64,000 bases of DNA from an uncultured Chloroflexia bacterium (GTDB taxonomy: Bacteria > Chloroflexota > Dehalococcoidia > DSTF01 > JACRBR01). Positions 971-12,233 of the stretch are shown here, in pieces. The position numbers and the translations under genes were made by a program. The stretch lies in NCBI GenBank assembly GCA_963840385.1, contig CAWIYS010000009.1:189087-253086 (forward strand), in the 5' to 3' direction. The stretch's first letter is position 1. The number at the start of each line of letters is the position of its first letter. The notes under the pieces are model-generated. The model worked only from the letters and a program-made list of their open reading frames with translations, was not told the origin of the DNA and made no database searches.

Positions 971-1795
971 TCAGCTGGTCGGAACCGTAAGCGCGCCTGC
1001 GAAGACCTGCCATGCCAGCAGCGACTTGGCGGTCAGGCTGAGCACGATGTAGCCATACTCGCCGAACAGGTACTCGCGCCAGGGGCCCATGCGCCGATAC
1101 TGCAGCCACATGTTGAGCGCGAACAAGCCGTACCAGACGAAGAGGGAGAAGAAGATCGCGTAGACGAACGCGGGCGGATTTCCGGGGCCCGTGCCCGGCG
1201 ACCACAGGTAGAGCGCGATGACGGCCCACGGTATGGCCCCGGCCATGCAGCCGAAGACGAACGGCGTCCAGTTCACCGTTTCGCCCGGCTCGTTGTGGAT
1301 TTCCATGAGGAGCCCGAACAGCAACATCGTCGCGTTCAGCGAGAAGATGAGGATCAGGCTGCCGAGGTCATACATGCCGGGGAGCATGGCGATGACTGCG
1401 ATCATGAGTGACGCGCTCAGCGCGTACTCCCACCAGCGCACGTAGTTGATCGAGCGTCGAAGATTGCCGACGTACCAGCGGTTCACGCCAGGCAGCGCCA
1501 CGAGTGCGTGCGCGAACGCGGAGATGAACAGGAACAACGCGACGAGCGGCGCCAGCTGCAGATCAGTGATGTCCCGCGTTGCCGTTGCGAGCGCCTGGCG
1601 CTCGTCATCGAACCGCAGGAATGACGTGCGGACGGGAACCGTCGCCTCGTTGCTGAGCAGTAGAATGGCGACACCCTGACCTGTGTGCAGGAGCGCCATC
1701 AGGATATTGAAGAGGCGAAGCCGGGACCACCCGCGATCGTTCATTCCTGCACCCCACTCAATATGGCTAATCGCGTGGCCGCTGTGATCGGTCAC
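971..1795 (-). CDS. Heliorhodopsin (7TM retinal protein). The start is uncertain: GTG at 1795 or ATG at 1744.
   Basis: The 274-aa ORF aligns along its length with heliorhodopsin 48C12. Matching blocks are RWWEYALSASLMIAVIA, FGCMAGAIPWAVIALYLWSPG and GEYGYIVLSLTAKSLLAWQVF. The Schiff-base Lys (SLTAK), the counterion Glu (RWWEY) and both conserved His residues are present. Confidence 0.85.
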   Translation of the reverse strand: MTDHSGHAISHIEWGAGMNDRGWSRLRLFNILMALLHTGQGVAILLLSNEATVPVRTSFLRFDDERQALATATRDITDLQLAPLVALFLFISAFAHALVALPGVNRWYVGNLRRSINYVRWWEYALSASLMIAVIAMLPGMYDLGSLILIFSLNATMLLFGLLMEIHNEPGETVNWTPFVFGCMAGAIPWAVIALYLWSPGTGPGNPPAFVYAIFFSLFVWYGLFALNMWLQYRRMGPWREYLFGEYGYIVLSLTAKSLLAWQVFAGALTVPTS

Positions 1796-2246: not shown

Positions 2247-4423
2247 ATGAAGTGGCGTACGTTCTTCCCCGTCATCTCCGGTTCGTTCGTCGCGCTGAGC
2301 GCGCTCGTGCTTGCGGTAGCGGTCTTGGCGTCGCCTGCGGCGGCCGCGCCGGGCGACACGATTGCTGACAGGGTCCTCGGCCAGCTGGGCAGCTTCACGA
2401 CGCAGGGCTGCAACAACGGCGGCGTCACGGCCACGTCGCTGTGCGATCCCTCGGGGGTCGCGGTGGACAGCAACGGCAACGTGTACGTCGCGGACATGTG
2501 GAACAACCGCGTGCTCGAGTACGACAATCCGCTGGGCAGTCTGCGGCAGCTGCGACGCCACGGCGGACCGGGTGTTCGGCCAGCGGGGCAGCATGACCTC
2601 CCGTGTCTGCAACCTCGGGCGGCATCTCGGCGACGAGCCTCTGCATGCCGGTGGACGTCGCGGTTGACAACGCCAACAACCTGTACGTCGTCGACTTCTA
2701 CAACAACCGCGTGCTCGAGTACCTCACGCCGCTCACGTCGCAGACGGCGGGGCGGGTGTTCGGGCAGGCCGGGAGCTTCACGACCGGGACCTATACGACG
2801 ACCCCAACGGCCAACACGTTGACCAATCCGATCTCGGTGGCCGTTGACAGCGCCGGTGACGTCTACATAGGTGACCGGGGGATGCACCGCATCCTTGAGT
2901 ACGACCCCCCGAACTCGAACACGACGGCGAACCGCGTGTTCGGTCAGCTCGGGAGCTTGACGACGGGAACCTTCAACAACGGCGGCATCGGCGCCGACAG
3001 CCTGGGCGACTTCAACGGCATCGGCGTCGACGCGGCTGGGAACCTCTACGTCGCCGACCTCAATAACTCCCGCGTGCTGAAGTACAACACGCCGATGTCG
3101 TCTGATACGACGGCGGATATGGTGTTCGGTCAGCTCGGCAGCTTCACGAGCGCGGTGCCAAACCTCGGAGGCGTGACCGCGGACAGCCTGGAATCGCCGA
3201 CGGACGTCGGCGTTGACTCAGCCGGAAACGTCTACATCACCGATACCGGGACGGAGCGCACGCTTGAGTACGACAACCCGGTCGGCCTCGGCACCTCGGC
3301 CGATGTCGTATTCGGCCAGGGAAACAACCTTACGTCGTTCGGCAACAACAGCGGCGGCCTCAGTGCGAGCAGCCAGGCCGATCCGTGGGCAATCGCATTC
3401 GACCACGCCTGCAACTTCTGGACGGTCGACTACGGGAACAACCGCGTGCTGGAGTACGACCAGCCGCCACATGCCTGCGTGGTCGCGGGCAGCCCCACGC
3501 CAACCCAGACGATCTGCCCCGCCTCGGTTTGCACGCCCATGCCGACGATCACTGATACGCCAACGCCCACGGCCACACTGACATGCACGCCGAACCCGAT
3601 CCAATCCTGCGCCACGGCGACACCCTGCAGTTTGCCACCCTGCGCAACTGACACGCCGACGGCAACGCCCACGTGTACACCGGGCACGCCCGGGTGCGAC
3701 AACCCGACAGCGACGCCGACCTGTGATCCGGCCATCTCACCCGGATGCGACAATCCGACGTCGACCTCGACGCCCTGCCCTGTTCCTCCGGGCTGCGACA
3801 CCCCGACCTTCACGCCCACGAACACGGCAACGGCGACCGCCACCAGGACGCCAATCGTCACGGCAACTGTCATTGCCACGACGGGGGGCACCATCTCAAT
3901 ATCCGGAGGGTGGCCGTCGGTGTCGTTCGCGAACGGAGCGCTGAGCGCCGATACCCTGATTACAATGGAAGAGCTCGCACTGGCAGACGCGCCGCTAGCA
4001 CCGCCCGGGCATCAGCTGTTGTCTATCATTGATCTCAGCCCGGGCGGCATCCAGTTCTATCCGGCGCAGGTAACCATGACGCTGCCGTACACCGATCCGC
4101 AGCTCGGCGGAGCGAACCCGGCAATGCTCGGTATCTGGACGTATCAGAACGGATCGTGGCGGCCGCTGGGCGGCACGATCGACACAGTGAACAAGACGGT
4201 CAGCGTGCCGGTACCGCACTTCTCGGCGTATGCGTTGATGGCACCGCTCACGCTCGTGTCGGTCGGAGGCGTCGCAGAGGAGCCGTCGTTAGGTGCATCG
4301 CCGGCTTTGGAGGCGCGCAAGACATCGCATACCGTAGCGCTCTTGGCCACGGCGATGTTGGCGATTAGCTCCGCGTCCGTGGCGACCGCTTCGTGGTGGG
4401 CGTTGCGACGCCGTCGGCGTTAG
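2247..4423 (+). CDS. Secreted NHL-repeat protein with a Thr/Pro-rich linker and a C-terminal hydrophobic anchor with polybasic tail. Two frame disruptions near 2545 and 2615.
   Basis: The N-terminus is a signal peptide (MKWRTFFPVISGSFVALSALVLAVAVLASPAAAAPGD). There are at least 7 NHL repeats of the type RVFGQLGSFTT...GVAVDSAGNVYVAD..NNRVLEY. The same repeat unit continues through three reading frames (0, then 1, then 2) between 2540 and 2620. The linker is PTPT-rich. The C-terminus ends ...VALLATAMLAISSASVATASWWALRRRRR. Confidence 0.75.
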
Positions 4424-5144: not shown

Positions 5145-5809
5145 GGCACCGCCCAGGCAATTCGCAACAAGGCGAGCTTCGTGCGCGATATCAACAAGAA
5201 CGGCTTGACCGCGCCCTATTCCCCGACCCTGGCGTGACGGACGCTAAAGTTCTATGCGCCGCGAGGTCAGCGCACACCCTTCCTCCGTTCCAGTTCGTCC
5301 ACCTCGCCAGAAACCCAATTCGCACGATTCCACGACGCCGCTCGGATGCCCCGCCCAAGCGTCATCCCCAATGGGGCCGTATGGGGCCTGCAACGGTGGC
5401 ATTTTCTCTCGGTGGAATGGACCGCCGGGAGCGCGCGTCGGCCGAGGCTGTGCTGAAGCTACGTCGTGAGACGTTTGAACGCCATGACGTCGCGATCCGG
5501 CTTTGTCTTGCGGGCAGGCGCCCGCAGGGCGAGGCTGTCCATGACGAACGCCCAAGAGACGTCCTCGCTTAAGATGGCGCCATCGCTATGACTTCATCGT
5601 GCGCGATGCCGATGCGACGCTCGCTTTGCGGGCCGCGTCCTGACGACTGTTGGCCGCATCGCTGCGCGCCGATCATGTTCTCAGGCGAGGTGCTTATTCC
5701 GCGCCCAGCGGGCCCGGTCGGGTGGTTCCCGCGAGCGGTCCGTGAGCATACCCTGATCGTGTCCGGACACGCGCCGCCAGCCGATCCGGACCGGCCAGAG
5801 GCAAGCTCC

Positions 5810-7042
5810 ATGCCACACAACGAGCCCCCGTTGTCGCTCAAGGCGTATCCGGCGCAGAGGTTCGACGTGGACACACTCGACCGCGTCGTGCTCCTCGCCG
5901 CGGCGAGCGACGGCGTACTCAGCGCGTACCTCGACATCGAACCGTCCGAAACGCAACGAGAAGGATTCGAGGCGGCGCTGCTCGATCTGTGGAAGCCGCT
6001 GCGAGCGGCACTGAAGGACACGGAGCCGGCCGGTCGTCTGGAGGAGGAGATCGACCGCGTCAACACCTACGTCCGCAGCTGGGACGAGCCGCCGGGACGC
6101 TCCGTCGCGATCTTCAGCTCTGCGCCCGGCGACGTCTTCGTGCCCGTGGCCCTCGACGTGCCGGTGCTCGCCGGCGCGCGCTTCGGCCCACGCGCGTATG
6201 TGCTGCCCCTGATCGCCGCATTGGACGAGCACGAGCGCTACTGTGTCGCGCTCGTGGACAGGGAGCGCGCTCGTCTGCTCACCGTGTGGATGGGGCATGT
6301 GGAGCAGAGAATCGAGTTCGAGGATACGCTCCCGGGCCGTGTCACGCGCGGCGGCGGCTGGTCGGCGGGCGCGGAGCGAGGCACCGGCCGGGACGCCTCA
6401 CGGATGGGCCCCGGGCGCGTCCACAGCTCGCAGGGCGGGTACGCGCGTCACATCGACTATCACGTGCATCTGCATCTCCAGCGTGTCGTTGCTGAGTTGT
6501 GGCGGCTGAGCCGGCTTGCTGCCGTCGGTCGGATCGTCATCGGCGGCCCGCCGGAAGCGGTGTCAGCGATGCGCCACATGCTGCCGCGCTCGCTCGCGGA
6601 GCGCGTCGCGGGGGAGTTCGCGGGCGAGTTGTTCGCGTCCGACGCCGAAATCCTCGACCGTGTCCGGGGCATCAAGGAGCAGGCCGAGCGGGCGCACGAG
6701 ACAGCGCTGGTGAAGGAGATTCTGGAGCGCGTGCCGAAAGCGGAGCTTGCGGTCGCTGGCTGGGACGACACGCTGACAGCTCTCTGTGACGGCCGCGCGC
6801 ACGAGCTTGTGCTGATCGAGGGTGAGACCATCGCGGGATACGCCTGTCCCGAAGGGCATTTCGCCGTGATCGAGCACATCGACCGCTGCCCGTACTGCGA
6901 CGAGCCCGTCTGGCAGATTGATGATCTTGCCGCTTGGGCGCTGCGCTGTGCATTTGCGACGGATGCCACCGTGGAGTTCGTTCGCGGTGAGGCCGCGGCA
7001 GCGCTGCGCCCTCACGGCGCGGGTGCGATCCTCCGGTACTAG
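5810..7042 (+). CDS. Bacterial eRF1/Pelota-like protein (baeRF family) with an inserted Cys4 zinc ribbon. The GGQ-equivalent loop reads RGGGWS.
   Basis: The central domain (YCVALVDRERARLLTV ... LPGRVTRGGGWSAGAERG ... SQGGYARHIDYHVHLHLQRVVAEL) parallels eRF1 domain 2 (LPKKHGRGGQSALRFARL...RHNYVRKVAE). The C-terminus ends ...GAGAILRY, like the eRF1/Pelota domain 3 terminus GxGGILRY. A zinc ribbon CPEGH...CPYC is present. The start is taken at the ATG at 5810 (MPHNEPP). Confidence 0.65.
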   Translation: MPHNEPPLSLKAYPAQRFDVDTLDRVVLLAAASDGVLSAYLDIEPSETQREGFEAALLDLWKPLRAALKDTEPAGRLEEEIDRVNTYVRSWDEPPGRSVAIFSSAPGDVFVPVALDVPVLAGARFGPRAYVLPLIAALDEHERYCVALVDRERARLLTVWMGHVEQRIEFEDTLPGRVTRGGGWSAGAERGTGRDASRMGPGRVHSSQGGYARHIDYHVHLHLQRVVAELWRLSRLAAVGRIVIGGPPEAVSAMRHMLPRSLAERVAGEFAGELFASDAEILDRVRGIKEQAERAHETALVKEILERVPKAELAVAGWDDTLTALCDGRAHELVLIEGETIAGYACPEGHFAVIEHIDRCPYCDEPVWQIDDLAAWALRCAFATDATVEFVRGEAAAALRPHGAGAILRY

Positions 7043-7108
7043 GAGATGAATTCGACGCAGCGTCCGTGTAGCCGTGATTGAGAGCCGGGCGGGGATCGAG
7101 GCGCGAGC

Positions 7109-7978
7109 GTGACCACCACGATGACCCTGGGAGTGTTGCTGCACGACGCCGCCGAAAGACTGCGCCGCGCCGGCATCGACGACACGGATCTCGAGGCGGA
7201 CGTACTGCTGCGGCACGCGCTCGGCATGGATGACGACCGTGCGCACCTGTTCGCGCAGCTCCGCGAGCCCGTCGATGCGGCGGCAGCCGTCCGCTTCAGT
7301 GACCTCGTGTGGCGGCGTCTCGCGCATGAGCCAACCGCATACCTAGTCGGCGTGCGCGAGTTCTTCGGATTGAAGCTCGCGTGCTCGCCAGAAGCGCTCA
7401 TCCCGCGCCCGGAGACGGAACTGCTCGTGGAGATCGCCCTCGACTGGCTGGCGCGCCGGACATTGCCATCGATCCCGCTCATCGTTGACGTCGGCACCGG
7501 CAACGGCGCACTGGCGATCGCGCTCGCCGTCCACTGTCCGTCCGCGAGGGTGATCGCCATCGACACATCGCCCGGAGCGCTGCGGCTCGCTAGGCAAAAC
7601 GCCGTGAGCCAGGGCGTCGACGCACGCGTGCAGTTCGTCCGCGGCGACCTATTGGCCCTGCTACGCGTGCCGGCTGACCTCGTGGTGGCGAACCTTCCGT
7701 ACGTCAGCGAGCCCGACTGGGAGGCCCTGCCTCCGGAGATCCGGGAGCATGAGCCGCGCTCGGCGCTCGTCGGGGGACGCGCCGGGACCGAGACGATCGC
7801 GCGGCTGCTGACGCAGGCGCCTGCGCACCTGGCCCCGCGTTCGTTGCTCCTCTGCGAGTGCGGCGATCTCCAGGCCGAGGCGCTGCGCGCCGACGCGACA
7901 CGCGCGTTCCCAAGCGCGCGCATCGAGGTGCGGCAGGATCTGGCCGGCCTCGATCGCGTCCTCCGCGTCGAGCCGTAA
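7109..7978 (+). CDS. prmC: Release-factor glutamine N5-methyltransferase PrmC/HemK family, with variant substrate motif NLPY in place of NPPY
   Basis: It has a HemK N-terminal helical domain and a class I SAM fold (VDVGTGNGALAIALA). The catalytic motif reads VVANLPYVSEPDWE. It is full length. Confidence 0.8.
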   Translation: MTTTMTLGVLLHDAAERLRRAGIDDTDLEADVLLRHALGMDDDRAHLFAQLREPVDAAAAVRFSDLVWRRLAHEPTAYLVGVREFFGLKLACSPEALIPRPETELLVEIALDWLARRTLPSIPLIVDVGTGNGALAIALAVHCPSARVIAIDTSPGALRLARQNAVSQGVDARVQFVRGDLLALLRVPADLVVANLPYVSEPDWEALPPEIREHEPRSALVGGRAGTETIARLLTQAPAHLAPRSLLLCECGDLQAEALRADATRAFPSARIEVRQDLAGLDRVLRVEP

Positions 7979-7987
7979 CGCGGCGCG

Positions 7988-8977
7988 ATGGAACGCCCAA
8001 TCACACTCGCGTTAGCCGGCGACGTCATGCTCGGCAGGATGGTGAACGCCACCATCGCGACGCGAGGGTTCGCGTACCCGTGGGGCGACATCGTCCGAAC
8101 CGCCCGCGATCGAGCTGATCTGTTTCTGATCAACCTGGAGTGCGCGCTCACAGCGAGCACCGGCCGCTGGTTCGATGGCCGCGAGAAGGAGTTCTACTTC
8201 CGCGCCGAACCGTCGGTCGTCGAGACGCTGAAGCTCGGCCGCGTCGACTTCGTCTCGCTCGCCAACAACCACGCCGGCGACTACGGAGACGCGGGGCTGC
8301 TGGAGACGGTGCGCGTGCTCGGTGAGGCGAGCATCGCCCATGCCGGCGCCGGCGTCACGCACGAGGCGGCCGCCGCACCCGCATATCTGGCCTGCGGCGG
8401 CGCGCGTGTCGGCATCGTCGCGTTCGCGGACCATCCGCACGAATGGGAGGCCACCGAGGAATCGCCCGGAATCAACATCACCAGCGTAGGGCCCCTGAGG
8501 GCGGACGTGCGTGACGCCGTCGCGGACGCGCGCGGACATGCCGACGTCGTCATCTTCTCGATCCACTGGGGGCCGAACATGCGGGCCCGGCCGAGCGGCG
8601 CCTTCCGGGAGTTCGCGCGGTACGTGATCGACGCCGGTGCGGATGTCTTCTGGGGCCACAGCGCGCACGTGGTACAGGGCGTCGAGTACTGGCACGGCGG
8701 CGTCGTTCTGTACGACACCGGCGACTTCATCGATGACTACGCGATCGACGGGAGCTTGCGGAACGACCTCTCGGCGCTCTTCTTCGTGCGTATCGCCACG
8801 GGCATGAAGGACGTCGAGTTGCTGCCCGTCCAGATCGACAACATGCAGGTAAGTGTGGCACGCGGGGCCGCGCGCGAATGGTTTGTCCGCCGTATCACGG
8901 CACTCTGCGCCGAGATGGGCACCGAAATTGTGGCAGGCGTAAGCCCGGACACCATCGCCGTCAGGCGGGCGGTCTAG
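7988..8977 (+). CDS. CapA/PgsA-like metallophosphatase (poly-gamma-glutamate capsule synthesis family)
   Basis: Motifs LAGDVMLGR, NLECALT, VSLANNHAGDYG and HWG match the PGA_cap metallophosphoesterase family. Confidence 0.75.
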   Translation: MERPITLALAGDVMLGRMVNATIATRGFAYPWGDIVRTARDRADLFLINLECALTASTGRWFDGREKEFYFRAEPSVVETLKLGRVDFVSLANNHAGDYGDAGLLETVRVLGEASIAHAGAGVTHEAAAAPAYLACGGARVGIVAFADHPHEWEATEESPGINITSVGPLRADVRDAVADARGHADVVIFSIHWGPNMRARPSGAFREFARYVIDAGADVFWGHSAHVVQGVEYWHGGVVLYDTGDFIDDYAIDGSLRNDLSALFFVRIATGMKDVELLPVQIDNMQVSVARGAAREWFVRRITALCAEMGTEIVAGVSPDTIAVRRAV

Positions 8978-9200
8978 GGCGGAGTATTGACTGGCTGTGC
9001 CCCGACGATCACCCTTCAAGGAGGTGCGCGGTGATGCGGGCGATCGACGTCCAGAACGCGATCCCCCCGCGGTGGGCACTCCAACCTGCAGCTCCGGCCG
9101 GCGGATGCGATCGCTGCGCACGCGGCATCGCGGCGACGATTCGCACCGCCTGGCGCCGCTCGTGCGACTTCGTGCGCACACGGCCACAGGAGCCCGAACC

Positions 9201-9914
9201 ATGGACACGACATTCGCCTCGGAAGAGCACGATGTCGTCGTGGAGATCCCGGCCGATGAGGTGACGCTCAACGGCAACCTCAACATCCCGCCAGGGGCAC
9301 GCGGCCTCGTCCTGTTCGCGCACGGCAGCGGCAGCAGCCGCCACAGTCCTCGCAACCGCTACGTTGCCAGCGAGCTGCGCGCGGGCGGCCTCGCCACGCT
9401 GCTCATGGACCTCCTGACGCCCGCCGAGGAGGAGATCGATCTGCGGACGGGAGGGCTGCGCTTCGACATCAGCCTGCTCGCGAAGCGCCTCGCCGCCGCG
9501 GCGGACTGGCTGGGCCAGCACGCCGACACGCAACACCTGAAGGTCGGGTATTTCGGTGCCAGCACCGGGGCCGGCGCGGCGCTCGTCGCGGCGGCGGAGA
9601 AGCCCGCCGCCGTCGGTGCCGTCGTGTCGCGCGGCGGCCGTCCCGATCTCGCGCGCTCGGCGCTCGCGCGCGTGCGGGCGCCAACATTGCTCATCGTCGG
9701 CGGCGACGACCTGCCCGTCATCGCGATGAACCGCGAAGCCTTCGCCGCGCTTCGCGTTGAGAAGAAGTTGGAGATCGTCCCCGGCGCGACGCATCTCTTC
9801 GAGGAGCCCGGGACGCTTGAACACGTCGCGCGTTCCGCACGCCAATGGTTCGAACGCCATCTTACGCCCGCCGGCCAACAAGCAGCGCTCGACGACGAGC
9901 GGGCGGGCAGGTGA
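9201..9914 (+). CDS. Dienelactone hydrolase-family alpha/beta hydrolase
   Basis: VLFAHGSGSSRHSPRN, the nucleophile elbow GYFGASTGAGAAL, and LLIVGGDD/GATHLFEEPG are present. The start is placed at the ATG at 9201. Confidence 0.7.
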   Translation: MDTTFASEEHDVVVEIPADEVTLNGNLNIPPGARGLVLFAHGSGSSRHSPRNRYVASELRAGGLATLLMDLLTPAEEEIDLRTGGLRFDISLLAKRLAAAADWLGQHADTQHLKVGYFGASTGAGAALVAAAEKPAAVGAVVSRGGRPDLARSALARVRAPTLLIVGGDDLPVIAMNREAFAALRVEKKLEIVPGATHLFEEPGTLEHVARSARQWFERHLTPAGQQAALDDERAGR

Positions 9915-10026
9915 TGGGCGCGACCGCGCCGCCGCGAAGATGCAGATCGACACGTCGCCGCGCGGTGAGCACAACACGAAGATGCCCCGGCGCTGCCGAG
10001 GCTTTCAAACCACAGGAGGACACGCC

Positions 10027-10497
10027 ATGGTTGCCGCCGCCGAAACACGCGTGATCGCCGCGCTCAAGCACGCCCAGGCGAACGCCATCGCCCTGTACCT
10101 GAACGCCAAGCGCTACCACTGGTTCATGTACGGGCCGTTGTTCCGCGACCTGCATCTCTTCTTCGATGAGCTGGCCAACGACGCGCTCGCCGAGTTCGAT
10201 CCGCTCGCCGAGCGGCTCCGCATGCTCGGCGGCGAACCGCTCTCGACGCCGCGCGAGATCGAAGCCTGGGCGACCGTCGCGATCGCCGACGGCAAGCCCA
10301 GCCCGCGCGCCATGCTCGAGGAGGTGCAGGCCAACGAACGGATCGTGGTGGCGGAGCTTCGCGACGCCGCTCGACTTGCCGACGAGGAACTGGACCCGGG
10401 TACGAACGATCTGCTGGCCACGCTCGTGCAGACCCACGAGAAGCACGCCTGGTTCATCGGGGAGCTCCTGCGCAAGAACGATGGACTCGTGGCCTAG
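10027..10497 (+). CDS. dps: Dps (DNA-binding ferritin-like protein)
   Basis: LYLNAKRYHWFMYGPLFRDLHLFFDE and ELDPGTNDLLATLVQTHEKHAWFI are the Dps ferroxidase-site signature. GGAGGA sits 6 nt upstream of the ATG. Confidence 0.85.
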   Translation: MVAAAETRVIAALKHAQANAIALYLNAKRYHWFMYGPLFRDLHLFFDELANDALAEFDPLAERLRMLGGEPLSTPREIEAWATVAIADGKPSPRAMLEEVQANERIVVAELRDAARLADEELDPGTNDLLATLVQTHEKHAWFIGELLRKNDGLVA

Positions 10498-10601
10498 ATC
10501 CATCATGCCTGCCGCGAGCTCGCGCGAGGACGAACCACAGGTCAGGCGCTGGCGCAGCGCCGAATGAGAAGCGGCCGAGTCGGAGGAGGTTCATTCTGAA
10601 C

Positions 10602-11279
10602 GTGTTTGTCGGTGGCCATCTGTTCGCGGATCGCGCCGACGCCGGCCGGCGGCTCACCGTCTTGCTCGAGCCGTTCCGCGCCCAACGTCCGCTGATCCTC
10701 GGCATCCCGCGCGGCGGCGTGCCCGTCGCGGCCGAAGTGGCGCGGTTGCTCGACGCCGAGCTCGATATCGTCGTGGCGCGCAAGCTCGGCGCCCCGGGTT
10801 TTCCCGAGCTGGCGATCGGCGCCGTAACCGCGAACGGCGGCCGCTACCTGAACGACGCAGTCATCCGCGAACTCGGCGTGTCGCCGTCATACATCGAAGC
10901 GGTGACCGCCGCGCAGCGCGCTGAGGCGGAACGCCGTGAGACGCGTTTCCGTGACGGCCGCCCGCCGCCAGTGGTTGCCGGACGCGTCGTCATCGTGGTC
11001 GACGACGGCCTGGCAACGGGCGCGACCATGCGCGCTTCCGTCAGATCGGTTCGTCAGGGCGGGCCGGCGGTGCTCGTGGCCGCGGTACCGGTCGGAGCGC
11101 CACAGTCCTGCGCCGCGTTGCGGGACGAGGTGGACGCGCTCGTGTGTCTGTACGAGCCGGAGGACTTCTGGGCGGTCGGCTTCTACTACCGGCACTTCGA
11201 GCCGACCGAGGACGACCAGGCACGCGAGTTGTTGAGAGACGCGCAGCAGCGCGTCCTGGCCAACGGGCCCGCGGTCTAG
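10602..11279 (+). CDS. Type I phosphoribosyltransferase-domain protein
   Basis: The PRPP-binding motif VVIVVDDGLATGATM is present, with an N-terminal LGIPRGGVPVAAEVA. It has a GTG start preceded by GGAGGAGG. Confidence 0.7.
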   Translation: MFVGGHLFADRADAGRRLTVLLEPFRAQRPLILGIPRGGVPVAAEVARLLDAELDIVVARKLGAPGFPELAIGAVTANGGRYLNDAVIRELGVSPSYIEAVTAAQRAEAERRETRFRDGRPPPVVAGRVVIVVDDGLATGATMRASVRSVRQGGPAVLVAAVPVGAPQSCAALRDEVDALVCLYEPEDFWAVGFYYRHFEPTEDDQARELLRDAQQRVLANGPAV

Positions 11280-11288
11280 CGGGGCACG

Positions 11289-12233
11289 ATGGATCTGCAG
11301 CTACTCGCCGGCAGCGCGCACCCCGCCCTCGCGGCGGCAATGGCCGGCGCACTCGGGGTACCGCTCAGCGCGTGCGATCTGGGTCGCTTTCCCGACGACG
11401 AAAGTCGCGTCCAACTGTGCGAAACCGCCCGCGGAAGCGACGTCTACATCCTGCAGACGACGTCGCCTCCGGCGGACCGCCACCTGTTTGAGCTGATGTT
11501 GATCGCGGACGCGGTGCACCGGGCGGGCGCCGCGCGCATTACCGCTGTCGTGCCGTACCTCGGCTACGCGCGGCAGGACCGGCGAACAGCGGGACGCGAA
11601 CCAGTGGCGGTGCGTGTCGTGGCGAACGCCCTCAGCACAAGCAGCATCGACAGGCTCGTGACCGTCGACGTGCATACACCCGCCATCGAGGGATTCTTCT
11701 CCATGCCGGTGGAATCGCTGACCGCCCTGCCGCGCCTCGCGGAGGCGCTGCAGGCATCTGTCGACGCGGATAGCGTGATCGTGGCGCCCGACCTGGGCGC
11801 GGCGAAACTGGCCGAGCGTTACGCGCGGGCGCTGCCGTCGTCGCCGCCGGTGGCGATGGTCCACAAAACGCGCATCAGCGGCTCTGAGGTGCGCGTCACG
11901 CGCGTGACCGGCGATGTCCAGCACCGTGCCCCGGTCATCGTCGACGACATGATCACCACCGGCGCCACGATCGAAGCCGCGGTCGATGCGCTGCTCGCGG
12001 CGGGGAGCCTGCCGCGGATCACGGTGGTAGCGTCGCACGGACTGTTCGTTGACCCCGCGCTCGCGCGCCTGCGACAGCTGCCCATCCAGCGCATCATTGT
12101 CACGGACAGCGTGCCTTTGCCCGACGCCCTCGCGCTTGCGATCGAGCGCGTCAGCATCGGCCCGTTGCTGGCGGAAACCATCAAGCGGCTCCATTCGGAC
12201 GAGTCGCTCGACGGTCTCATCCTGCATCGGTGA
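11289..12233 (+). CDS. prs: Ribose-phosphate pyrophosphokinase
   Basis: Full-length match to the Prs family: DVYILQTTSPP, the PRPP motif VIVDDMITTGATI, and GYARQDRR. Confidence 0.9.
   Translation: MDLQLLAGSAHPALAAAMAGALGVPLSACDLGRFPDDESRVQLCETARGSDVYILQTTSPPADRHLFELMLIADAVHRAGAARITAVVPYLGYARQDRRTAGREPVAVRVVANALSTSSIDRLVTVDVHTPAIEGFFSMPVESLTALPRLAEALQASVDADSVIVAPDLGAAKLAERYARALPSSPPVAMVHKTRISGSEVRVTRVTGDVQHRAPVIVDDMITTGATIEAAVDALLAAGSLPRITVVASHGLFVDPALARLRQLPIQRIIVTDSVPLPDALALAIERVSIGPLLAETIKRLHSDESLDGLILHR

What the first reader, a model, noticed from the sequence alone, without database searches (positions are those of the whole stretch)
5810..7978. eRF1/Pelota-like (baeRF) gene with GGG in place of GGQ, paired with a HemK/PrmC methyltransferase bearing NLPY in place of NPPY
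The upstream ORF has the three-domain logic of eRF1/Pelota. Its central loop RVTRGGGWSAGAERG ... RHIDYHVHLHLQRVVAE aligns with eRF1 KHGRGGQSALRFARL ... RHNYVRKVAE, and the C-terminus ends GAGAILRY. It also carries an inserted Cys4 zinc ribbon.

The exact position that holds the methylated Gln in release factors is Gly here. The immediately downstream PrmC-family methyltransferase, which normally N5-methylates that Gln, has NLPY at its substrate-binding tetrapeptide.

The pair could be a co-evolved rescue or quality-control module in which the methyltransferase has a different substrate. Alternatively the methyltransferase is the housekeeping PrmC, merely parked beside an RF-like gene instead of prfA.
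Basis: partly seen in the sequence, partly recalled or inferred. Interest (0 to 1): 0.72.

Follow-up and report, generated by a model that had tools for sequence, protein, structure and literature searches.

The report
Balon-type ribosome factor beside ordinary PrmC
The two genes are real. One is a known kind of bacterial eRF1-like (Balon-type) ribosome-binding stress factor, and the other is this lineage's ordinary release-factor methyltransferase, so their adjacency looks like a recent accident of gene order rather than a co-evolved pair.

Summary
Both ORFs exist as described. ORF A (5810-7042) is a three-domain bacterial aeRF1-like protein, Pfam baeRF_family10. Its best solved relative, by sequence and by predicted fold, is the mycobacterial hibernation factor Balon/Msmeg1130, which itself scores as family 10. 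ORF B (7109-7978) passes the NCBIfam PrmC equivalog cut-off and does carry NLPY.

Two details of the observation are wrong. Profile alignment puts eRF1's GGQ on G182-G183-W184, not on GGG. The family's conserved Gln is still present as Q208, after a 22-residue clade-specific loop insertion. The "Cys4" ribbon is C-x3-H...C-x2-C.

The co-evolution idea is not supported:
- NLPY is the normal form in this PrmC clade: 115 of 121 close homologues and 120 of 148 unbiased 50%-cluster representatives.
- NLPY PrmCs 66% and 57% identical to this one lie directly after prfA, whose RF1 has an intact GGQ.
- None of 65 family-10 loci from species-representative genomes has a prmC within the fetched flanks.
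- Close relatives show baeRF-rtcA-prmC, baeRF-rtcA-(prmC remnant), or archease-rtcB-baeRF with no prmC.

This is an ordinary new member of known families. Interest is low.

The parts
5810..7042 (+). baeRF-1 family 10 (Balon-superfamily, aeRF1-like) gene, 410 aa, three domains
   Evidence: Pfam PF18854 scores 92.9 bits. The profile search of PDB gives Balon Msmeg1130 (8v9j) as best hit at E 2e-29, then aRF1 (4af1) at 4e-18. The AF2 model has pLDDT 86.9 and pTM 0.79. Foldseek's top hits are 8v9l/8v9j with TM 0.75-0.84.
6353..6361 (+). G182-G183-W184, the positional equivalent of the eRF1/aRF1 GGQ tripeptide
   Evidence: The HMM alignment to aRF1 4af1 and eRF1 4crm shows this. G182 and G183 are at least 90% conserved in the 57-sequence alignment.
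6362..6427 (+). 22-residue clade-specific insertion (residues 185-206) in the peptidyl-transferase-centre loop, predicted disordered
   Evidence: It is present in relatives of about 63% identity and above and absent from those of about 60% and below. pLDDT is below 50 for residues 179-205. Its C-terminal half, GPGR(V/I)HS, is conserved within the clade.
6431..6433 (+). Q208 codon, the conserved glutamine of family 10 (the SQ of GGW-SQ), in the first turn of the helix that follows the loop
   Evidence: Alignments; position; the helix starts at residue 206. Burroughs and Aravind 2019 single out family 10 as keeping a conserved Gln.
6845..6898 (+). Zinc-ribbon-like insert in the C-terminal (Pelota-like) domain: C346-x3-H350 ... 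C360-x2-C363
   Evidence: C346, C360 and C363 are invariant in the 19-sequence alignment A1 and at least 90% conserved in the 57-sequence alignment A2. Distant relatives have CxxC...CxxC.
7109..7978 (+). prmC (release-factor N5-glutamine methyltransferase), 289 aa from GTG 7109, or 285 aa from ATG 7121
   Evidence: TIGR03534 scores 236.5 bits against a cut-off of 199.1, and PrmC_N scores 63.5 bits. E. coli PrmC 2b3t matches at E 1e-31. An identical 285-aa protein, P0085, is on record.
7691..7702 (+). NLPY, motif IV of PrmC, aligned to NPPY of E. coli PrmC
   Evidence: NLPY occurs in 115 of 121 close homologues and 120 of 148 unbiased 50%-cluster representatives.
7988..12233 (+). Syntenic downstream block: PGA_cap (7988-8977), dienelactone-hydrolase-like (8997-9914), Dps/ferritin (about 9970-10497), phosphoribosyltransferase (10602-11279), PRPP synthetase (11289-12233)
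   Evidence: Pfam hits. The same order follows prmC in relatives L084/L085, L066 and L081.

Best explanation
ORF A encodes a bacterial aeRF1-like protein of baeRF-1 family 10. The experimentally characterised mycobacterial ribosome hibernation factor Balon/Msmeg1130 belongs to the same Pfam family.

Inferred mechanism, by homology. The protein binds the A site of the 70S ribosome under stress. Its N domain would sit at the decoding centre without reading a stop codon, since there is no NIKS motif. Its middle-domain loop (GGW, a 22-residue insert, then SQ) would reach towards the peptidyl-transferase centre. Its C domain with the Zn-ribbon-like insert would face the translational GTPase site. 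In this way it would shut down and protect idle or damaged ribosomes. Whether the conserved GG...Q loop also hydrolyses peptidyl-tRNA is open.

ORF B is the lineage's ordinary PrmC, which methylates the GGQ glutamine of RF1 and RF2. NLPY is simply the form of motif IV used across this large PrmC clade.

The two genes are neighbours because, in a shallow Chloroflexota clade, prmC-PGA_cap sits downstream of baeRF-rtcA. In this genome rtcA has been lost from between them. No functional coupling is needed to explain the pair.

Split confidence: identities and incidental adjacency about 0.85; non-catalytic Balon-like mode of action for ORF A about 0.55.
For: Identity of ORF A:
- Pfam family 10 hit.
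- PDB profile search: best hit Msmeg1130 over its full length, E 2e-29.
- Confident AF2 model, whose best structural matches are ribosome-bound Msmeg1130 (TM 0.75-0.84) and P. urativorans Balon, ahead of aRF1, eRF1 and Pelota.
- Msmeg1130 itself scores 124.7 bits on baeRF_family10.

Stress context:
- Dps lies downstream in the window.
- In 65 family-10 loci, Hsp20 is within 1 kb in 21. DUF1931, ferritin-like, BON and RtcB/archease genes also recur.
- These match the neighbours reported for Balon homologues in PMC10901736.

PrmC is ordinary:
- It passes the equivalog cut-off.
- NLPY occurs in 115 of 121 and in 120 of 148 relatives.
- NLPY PrmCs P0113 (66% identical) and P0196 (57%) follow prfA directly, or after one small gene, and those RF1s carry GGQ.
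- The NJ tree shows no long branch for the baeRF-linked PrmCs.

Adjacency is incidental:
- 0 of 65 loci have a prmC.
- Relatives show baeRF-prmC (L069), baeRF-rtcA-prmC (L066-68), baeRF-rtcA-(prmC remnant) (L081), archease-rtcB-baeRF-DLH (L070-72 and L001-L005), and baeRF-DLH (L083).
Against: - No experiment bears on this protein.
- Unlike Msmeg1130 and Balon, this subfamily keeps a near-invariant GG and a conserved Gln in the PTC loop. It also keeps a Zn-ribbon-like insert instead of Balon's beta-hairpin. Burroughs and Aravind flagged family 10 as possibly catalytic.
- NCBIfam equivalog scores for the two Balon families are far below cut-off: 67 against 480 and 44.5 against 320.
- RtcB/archease or RtcA lie next to the gene in the closest relatives, which also fits a rescue-and-repair role.
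- I could not scan the rest of the source genome, so a second prmC beside prfA cannot be excluded.
- The genes are on the same strand, 66-78 nt apart, with no predicted terminator between them, so co-transcription is possible.
Confidence: 0.6

Rival explanations
1. ORF A is a catalytically active rescue release factor. Its GG-W...S-Q loop would hydrolyse peptidyl-tRNA on stalled or nuclease-damaged ribosomes, working with RNA-repair enzymes (RtcA in this clade, RtcB/archease in the sister clade), by analogy with PrfH-RtcB. PrmC would still be unrelated.
For: - G182 and G183 are at least 90% conserved, and the SQ Gln is conserved across family-10 members from several phyla.
[quoted passage not shown] They name family 10 as potentially active.
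- Insert-less relatives also hit Pfam acVLRF1 at 32-52 bits.
- Archease-rtcB lies immediately upstream in L001-L005 and L070-72, and rtcA immediately downstream in L066-68 and L081.
- From established release-factor enzymology (my own knowledge): the two glycines and the backbone of the third residue matter more for catalysis than the Gln side chain.
Against: - The only characterised family-10 member (Msmeg1130) and other Balon homologues are non-catalytic.
- In this clade a 22-residue disordered insert splits GGW from SQ.
- Three close relatives have Glu instead of the Gln, and Deinococcota members lack it.
- Hsp20, Dps and BON neighbours fit dormancy. RtcB is already listed among Balon neighbours.
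Confidence: 0.3
2. This is a co-evolved baeRF-PrmC module, the first reader's main idea corrected for register. The adjacent PrmC would methylate the baeRF glutamine (Q208), or another non-RF substrate, and NLPY would reflect that altered substrate.
For: - The genes are on the same strand, close together, with no terminator found.
- In L066-68 and L084-85, rtcA and prmC overlap by 4 nt.
- A conserved Gln preceded by a small residue exists.
- In L081 the baeRF Gln is Glu and the neighbouring prmC is reduced to a 3' remnant. This is a single coincidence, but in the predicted direction.
Against: - NLPY is present in 120 of 148 unbiased nearest PrmC representatives and in prfA-linked PrmCs whose RF1 has a normal GGQ. 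The motif is therefore not tied to baeRF.
- 0 of 65 family-10 loci have a prmC.
- Sister-clade relatives that keep the Gln have no prmC at the locus.
- The protein passes the PrmC equivalog model and shows no accelerated divergence.
- From general knowledge: PrmC recognises the bacterial RF fold, which is unrelated to the aeRF1 fold.
Confidence: 0.05
3. The locus prmC is a second, paralogous copy. The true housekeeping gene would sit beside prfA elsewhere, and the locus copy would have a diverged or redundant role unrelated to baeRF.
For: - The locus copy was deleted in L081 without loss of its neighbours, so it is dispensable there.
- The prfA-linked clade (P0113) is sister to the whole baeRF/rtcA-linked clade in the NJ tree. 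This is compatible with either paralogy or the species tree.
Against: - The copy passes the equivalog cut-off and keeps the SAM motif VDVGTGNG and the N-x-P-Y motif.
- PrmC identity (66-83%) tracks baeRF identity (71-85%) across relatives, as expected for a single-copy orthologue.
- No second PrmC from the 432,091-nt source contig appears among the top 120 hits.
- prmC loss is tolerated in some bacteria (general knowledge), so the L081 deletion does not require a second copy.
Confidence: 0.1
4. This is a sequencing or assembly artefact. The true sequence would have GGQ and NPPY.
For: None found.
Against: - The same loop and the same NLPY occur in many independent assemblies from JGI, ENA, Logan and NCBI.
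- Changing GGC (Gly) or TGG (Trp) to a Gln codon needs at least two substitutions.
Confidence: 0.01

Closest known systems
Balon homologue Msmeg1130 (MSMEG_1130) of Mycobacterium smegmatis, PDB 8v9j/8v9l (Helena-Bueno et al. 2024, PMC10901736)
   Same: - Same Pfam family, baeRF_family10.
- Full-length profile match at E 2e-29.
- Best structural match, TM 0.75-0.84.
- Shared LS(V/A)YLD.xP N-domain motif and ...LR(Y/W) C-terminus.
- No NIKS and no GGQ.
- Stress-type gene neighbourhood.
   Different: - Only about 19% identity.
- Far below the NCBIfam equivalog cut-off, 67 against 480 bits.
- Msmeg1130 has RAGQMREQ where this subfamily has a conserved GGW...SQ.
- Msmeg1130 lacks the Zn-ribbon cysteines, aligning ...GADGSLYADG--EIAPHSHA.
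- This protein has an extra 22-residue loop insert.
Archaeal/eukaryotic class-I release factor aRF1/eRF1 (4af1, 1dt9)
   Same: - Three-domain architecture.
- The GG of the catalytic loop and the following Arg-rich helix align column for column: GGWSQaRYaRHR against GGQSAQRFARLR.
- Zn-ribbon insert in the C domain, as in aRF1.
- C-terminal G.GA.LRY.
   Different: - The Gln column holds Trp.
- No NIKS.
- TIGR03676 scores 16.8 bits against a cut-off of 234.7.
- The protein is bacterial and coexists with RF1/RF2-type termination in the lineage.
[quoted passage not shown]
   Same: - A GGxSQ-type loop with a conserved Gln preceded by a small residue.
- NCBI names two relatives 'Vms1/Ankzf1 family peptidyl-tRNA hydrolase'.
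- Insert-less relatives hit Pfam acVLRF1 secondarily.
   Different: - The window protein has no acVLRF1 hit at E <= 0.01.
- Family 10 always scores higher.
- acVLRF-1 lacks the N-terminal codon-domain equivalent, whereas this protein has a folded N domain.
PrfH-RtcB rescue-and-repair pair (as discussed in PMC6514570)
   Same: An RF-like gene lies next to RNA-repair genes: archease-rtcB or rtcA in the closest relatives.
   Different: - PrfH has the bacterial RF fold, not the aeRF1 fold.
- No rtcB, rtcA or archease is present in this window.
E. coli PrmC/HemK (2b3t, 1t43) and TIGR03534 RF_mod_PrmC
   Same: - PrmC_N plus a class-I methyltransferase domain, a SAM-binding G-x-G-x-G motif, and motif IV at the same column.
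- Orthologues in the lineage follow prfA.
   Different: - Motif IV is NLPY, not NPPY. This holds for a large clade of PrmCs.
- Here the gene is not next to prfA.

Membership tests
baeRF-1 family 10 (Pfam PF18854) | Middle (RNase-H-like release-factor) domain scores above the Pfam gathering threshold, and higher than for other baeRF families | tested here: met
   92.9 bits against 27.1. The next best is family 12 at 26.8 bits.
baeRF-1 family 10 (Pfam PF18854) | Standard three-domain aeRF1 architecture (N, middle, Pelota-like C domain with an insert at the Zn-ribbon site) | tested here: met
   AF2 model with pLDDT 86.9. Full-length Foldseek and HMM matches to Balon and aRF1. C-x3-H...C-x2-C insert.
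baeRF-1 family 10 (Pfam PF18854) | Well-conserved glutamine in the catalytic loop (Burroughs and Aravind 2019) | tested here: met
   Q208 aligns with the SQ glutamine of the family. A 22-residue insert displaces it from GGW.
Balon-type ribosome hibernation factor, MSMEG_1130 family (NCBIfam NF052288) and Rv2629 family (NF052289) | Score at or above the curated equivalog cut-off | tested here: not met
   67.2 against 480 bits, and 44.5 against 320 bits. The protein is a homologue, not an equivalog.
Balon-type ribosome hibernation factor | Absence of the NIKS and GGQ motifs | tested here: met
   Neither string is in the protein. However, the GG and a nearby Gln are retained.
Balon-type ribosome hibernation factor | Beta-hairpin insertion in the C domain (EF-Tu contact) in place of the Zn ribbon | tested here: not met
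   A Zn-ribbon-like C/H/C/C insert is retained. Burroughs and Aravind describe the two-strand insert as replacing the ribbon in many baeRF families.
Balon-type ribosome hibernation factor | Binds the ribosomal A site and inhibits translation without releasing peptide | not testable with these tools
   Needs biochemistry or cryo-EM.
aRF1/eRF1 class-I release factor (TIGR03676) | Equivalog score, GGQ tripeptide, and a NIKS-type stop-codon motif | tested here: not met
   16.8 against 234.7 bits. GGW stands in place of GGQ. No NIKS.
PrmC, release-factor N5-glutamine methyltransferase (TIGR03534) | Score at or above the curated equivalog cut-off, with the PrmC_N domain | tested here: met
   236.5 against 199.1 bits. 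PrmC_N scores 63.5 bits.
PrmC, release-factor N5-glutamine methyltransferase (TIGR03534) | Motif IV NPPY | tested here: not met
   The motif is NLPY. The same variant is the majority form among the nearest PrmCs and occurs in prfA-linked genes, so I treat it as a clade variant, not as grounds for exclusion.
PrmC, release-factor N5-glutamine methyltransferase (TIGR03534) | Genomic linkage to prfA (typical but not obligatory) | tested here: not met
   No RF1/RF2 gene is in the 64-kb window. Orthologues at 66% and 57% identity are prfA-linked.
PrmC, release-factor N5-glutamine methyltransferase (TIGR03534) | Methylates the GGQ Gln of RF1/RF2 | not testable with these tools
   Needs an enzyme assay or mass spectrometry.
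acVLRF-1 (Pfam PF18859; Vms1-like) | Pfam hit above threshold as the best family, and no N-terminal codon-recognition-type domain | tested here: not met
   No hit for the window protein. Hits in relatives are secondary to family 10. A folded N domain is present.

The most novel reading that the evidence does not exclude
In this shallow Chloroflexota clade, the PrmC encoded in the baeRF(-rtcA)-prmC cluster would methylate the conserved Q208 of the aeRF1-fold factor, in addition to or instead of RF1/RF2. That would give a stress-induced rescue or hibernation module whose activity is tuned by Gln methylation. The joint Gln-to-Glu change and prmC deletion in relative L081 would be its footprint.
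Probability: 0.05. Interest if true: 0.75.

Novelty: new member of a known kind. Interest (0 to 1): 0.2.

Why it matters
As it stands it matters little. It adds one more Chloroflexota member to the Balon/baeRF-1 family 10 and one more PrmC.

Three modest points may be useful.
- Family 10 contains both a proven non-catalytic hibernation factor (Msmeg1130) and a large subgroup that keeps GG...SQ. That makes the family a good place to test where hibernation factors and active release factors diverge.
- The subgroup's closest members are wired to RtcB/archease or RtcA, which makes a rescue-plus-repair role testable.
- A very large natural clade of PrmC uses NLPY while its RF1 keeps GGQ. The first proline of the canonical NPPY is therefore not required for a housekeeping Gln methyltransferase.

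Tried and rejected
- Sequencing error: rejected, because many independent assemblies agree.
- Looked for prfA/prfB, rtcA, rtcB, archease, Hsp20, a DEAD-box helicase and Usp in the window by motif and tblastn. Only the DLH neighbour is shared.
- Looked up the exact source-genome PrmC (P0085): not on record. The cluster look-up gave only the contig length, 432,091 nt, and no accession. The rest of the source genome could therefore not be scanned for a second prmC.
- The metagenome scan with the window protein gave only two loci, one of them already known.
- Terminator and promoter scan between the genes: nothing on the + strand.
- Rfam over the whole window: no hits. tRNAs: none.
- Literature search for NLPY together with PrmC/HemK/NPPY: no occurrence of NLPY.
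- Literature search for newer work on family 10, or on Balon with RtcB or a hydrolase: nothing beyond the two key papers.
- Considered filing ORF A as Vms1-like (acVLRF-1). Rejected because family 10 always scores higher and an N domain is present.
- The third large protein search was not spent. The only use I could see was locating RF1 by a contig-length fingerprint, which had a low chance of being informative.
Full report
**What is in the sequence.**
The region holds two same-strand ORFs with the codon-position GC pattern of real genes in this roughly 68% GC window.
- ORF A runs 5810-7042 (410 aa). An in-frame upstream ATG at 5588 exists, but 408-412-aa homologues all start MPHN/MQ..., so 5810 is the start.
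- ORF B runs 7109-7978 (GTG, 289 aa). Alternatively it runs from ATG 7121, giving 285 aa, identical to the database protein P0085.
- The gap between them is 66-78 nt. The scan found no + strand terminator between 5100 and 10100.

**Identity of ORF A.**
- Pfam gives baeRF_family10 at 92.9 bits against a cut-off of 27.1, with weaker hits to other baeRF families.
- NCBIfam gives only sub-threshold hits to the two Balon-type hibernation-factor equivalogs (MSMEG_1130 family 67 against 480 bits, Rv2629 family 44.5 against 320) and to aRF1 (16.8 against 234.7).
- A profile of 19 homologues searched against PDB sequences finds Balon Msmeg1130 (8v9j) first, over its full length at E 2e-29. Next come aRF1 4af1 (4e-18), aRF1 3agk, Rv2629, eRF1 and Pelota.
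- An AlphaFold2 model built on a 57-sequence alignment is confident (pLDDT 86.9, pTM 0.79). Only residues 1-3 and 179-205 are disordered.
- Foldseek against PDB ranks ribosome-bound Msmeg1130 first (TM 0.75-0.84). It places aRF1 third by E-value (TM 0.46), then P. urativorans Balon (TM 0.65-0.74), then eRF1 and Pelota/Dom34.
- I rebuilt the Msmeg1130 sequence from the printed alignment and scanned it. It scores 124.7 bits on baeRF_family10, while Rv2629 is family 2.
- ORF A is therefore a member of the same Pfam family as an experimentally established A-site hibernation factor (PMC10901736).

**The 'GGG instead of GGQ' claim.**
The profile alignment to aRF1 and eRF1 lines up the family consensus ...pGrsaaGGWSQaRYaRHRe... 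with ...PGKQRKGGQSAQRFARLRLE... without a gap.
- GGQ therefore corresponds to G182-G183-W184. The Gln column holds Trp, not Gly.
- G181 is not conserved even among close relatives, whereas G182 and G183 are at least 90% conserved.
- Two columns after the GGQ position the family carries a conserved Gln (GGW-SQ). This is the 'well-conserved glutamine' that Burroughs and Aravind (PMC6514570) noted for family 10, and it matches their GGxSQ motif of aVLRF-1 and acVLRF-1.
- The window protein keeps this Gln as Q208 (S206-S207-Q208-GGYARH), in the first turn of helix 206-236.
- A 22-residue insertion (185-206, SAGAERGTGRDASRMGPGRVHS) separates it from GGW. The insertion is present in relatives of about 63% identity and above and absent below about 60%.
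- The insertion's C-terminal half, GPGR(V/I)HS, is conserved within the clade.
- The Gln is Glu in three relatives (P0016, P0017, P0023). It is absent in Deinococcota members and in Msmeg1130.

**The 'Cys4' ribbon.**
It is C346-x3-H350...C360-x2-C363. Distant relatives have CxxC...CxxC.

**Identity of ORF B and the NLPY motif.**
- ORF B passes the PrmC equivalog model (TIGR03534, 236.5 against 199.1 bits). It has the PrmC_N domain and aligns with E. coli PrmC (2b3t, E 1e-31), NLPY falling on NPPY.
- Among the 120 best homologues (55-100% identity) plus the query, 115 have NLPY, 5 DLPY and 1 NPPY.
- That search is word-seeded, so I repeated the test with the index-free search of 50%-identity cluster representatives. 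Of the 148 nearest representatives newly returned by that search, 120 have NLPY and 26 have NPPY. All of the top 25 have NLPY.
- Two NLPY PrmCs were placed on contigs. P0113 (66% identical) lies immediately after prfA. P0196 (57%) lies after prfA and one small gene. Both RF1s carry ...AGGQNVNKV.
- NLPY is therefore the normal motif of a large PrmC clade that serves ordinary GGQ release factors.

**Is the adjacency conserved?**
- A scan of one genome per GTDB species with the family alignment returned 65 family-10 loci. They are mostly Chloroflexota, with Acidobacteriota/Thermoanaerobaculia, Deinococcota, Nitrospira, Gemmatimonadales and others. None has a PrmC homologue in the fetched flanks of up to 10 kb a side.
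- Recurrent neighbours are instead Hsp20 (within 1 kb in 21 loci), DUF1931 (11), a ferritin-like protein (9), a SpoU methylase (9), BON, and RtcB/archease. Hsp20 and RtcB are among the neighbours listed for Balon homologues in PMC10901736, and the BON-domain protein resembles the OsmY listed there.
- Among close relatives the arrangements are as follows.
  - L079 (95% identical): baeRF, then prmC.
  - L069 (85%): baeRF-prmC-PGA_cap.
  - L066-68 (75%): baeRF-rtcA-prmC-PGA_cap-DLH, with rtcA and prmC overlapping by 4 nt.
  - L084/85: rtcA-prmC-PGA_cap-dodecin-DLH-Dps-PRT-Prs.
  - L081 (70%): baeRF-rtcA-[3' remnant of prmC]-PGA_cap-DLH. A deletion of about 650 nt removes the SAM motif and NLPY.
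  - L070/71, L072 and L001-L005 (56-72%): archease-rtcB-baeRF, followed by DLH in some, with no prmC.
  - L082 and L083 (70-72%): no prmC.
- The window shares the downstream block PGA_cap-DLH-Dps-PRT-Prs. It has no rtcA, rtcB or archease.
- The simplest history is that prmC-PGA_cap came to lie behind baeRF-rtcA in one shallow clade, and the window lineage (with L069) then lost rtcA.
- An NJ tree of PrmCs places the prfA-linked P0113 group as sister to the baeRF/rtcA-linked group, with comparable branch lengths.

**Mechanism.**
What is shown: the family, the fold, the motifs and the neighbourhoods. What is inferred follows.
- By homology with Msmeg1130/Balon, ORF A should occupy the ribosomal A site. 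It would do so without stop-codon reading, since there is no NIKS motif, and with its middle-domain loop at the peptidyl-transferase centre.
- I rate a Balon-like protective, silencing role in a stress regulon as most likely, at about 0.55. The reasons are that the only characterised family-10 protein works this way and that the neighbours are dormancy genes.
- The main rival, at about 0.3, is that the Gln-bearing subgroup is catalytically active and acts in rescue with RNA repair. It rests on the near-invariant GG, the conserved SQ, the retained Zn-ribbon-like insert and the RtcB/RtcA linkage. It is analogous to PrfH-RtcB as discussed in PMC6514570.
- For ORF B the inferred function is the ordinary one, N5-methylation of the RF1/RF2 GGQ glutamine.

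**The co-evolution hypothesis.**
Once the register is corrected, a candidate Gln (Q208) does exist, so the idea cannot be dismissed on the ground that there is no Gln. One observation points its way. In L081 the baeRF Gln is Glu, and the neighbouring prmC is deleted. Everything else points against it:
- The NLPY motif is clade-wide.
- Orthologues are prfA-linked.
- prmC is absent from all 65 wider loci and from Gln-bearing sister-clade loci.
- PrmC divergence is not accelerated.
I give the idea about 0.05.

A separate possibility, about 0.1, is that the locus prmC is a second copy.

**Comparison and novelty.**
- ORF A is a new member of a described family: baeRF-1 family 10 in the Balon superfamily.
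- Its loop insertion and Cys3His ribbon are minor variants.
- Its neighbourhood themes (Hsp20, RtcB, Dps/OsmY-like) are already published.
- ORF B is an ordinary PrmC.
- The finding is therefore largely explained and of low interest. The open question is whether Gln-bearing family-10 proteins are catalytic.

Noticed in passing
window 971-1795 (-): A heliorhodopsin gene (Pfam PF18761, 324 bits, full length) lies about 4 kb upstream of the baeRF gene.
   Followed up: no
window 7691-7702; proteins P0085-P0354: NLPY in place of NPPY is the majority motif IV across a very large PrmC clade: 120 of the 148 nearest 50%-identity cluster representatives newly returned by the search. It includes prfA-linked genes whose RF1 keeps GGQ. 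The string NLPY did not occur in any paper retrieved with PrmC/HemK/NPPY terms.
   Followed up: partly
L081:8200-8640 (relative, 70% identical baeRF): prmC is reduced to its 3' third (about 230 nt) by a deletion of about 650 nt, while rtcA and PGA_cap on either side are intact. In the same contig the baeRF loop Gln is Glu (RSDEAGYARH). Two other Glu variants (P0016, P0023) could not be fetched to see whether the coincidence recurs.
   Followed up: partly
window 6362-6427; L001, L002, L066-L072, L079-L083: A 19-22-residue insertion lies in the PTC-facing loop of family 10, restricted to relatives of about 63% identity and above. Its N half is variable, Gly/Arg-rich and charged. Its C half (G-P-G-R-V/I-H-S) is conserved. 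It is predicted to be disordered.
   Followed up: partly
L001-L005, L070-L072 (archease-rtcB-baeRF); L066-L068, L081 (baeRF-rtcA): The closest relatives of the window gene are flanked by RNA-repair genes: archease plus RtcB upstream, or RtcA downstream. The window itself has none of these within its 64 kb.
   Followed up: yes
L022, L029, L031, L037, L038, L040, L043-L045: In Thermoanaerobaculia/Acidobacteriota, a SpoU-family RNA 2'-O-methyltransferase gene sits immediately upstream of the family-10 gene in 9 loci. In these proteins GGW is replaced by TGT plus a 4-residue insert, but the SQ is kept.
   Followed up: no
L048-L065 (Deinococcota/Thermaceae): A conserved cassette occurs here: ferritin-like gene, family-10 gene, Hsp20, DUF1931. 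These family-10 proteins lack the loop Gln (RGGSGRDKFDR).
   Followed up: no
window 5145-5809: There is a long (about 665 nt) gap between the cupin gene and the baeRF start. It contains an in-frame upstream extension of the ORF back to ATG 5588. It has no Rfam match and no promoter-like consensus.
   Followed up: partly
window 2603-4423 (+): A 606-aa NHL-repeat beta-propeller protein with a long Pro/Thr/Cys-rich linker and a C-terminal hydrophobic anchor followed by RRRRR.
   Followed up: no
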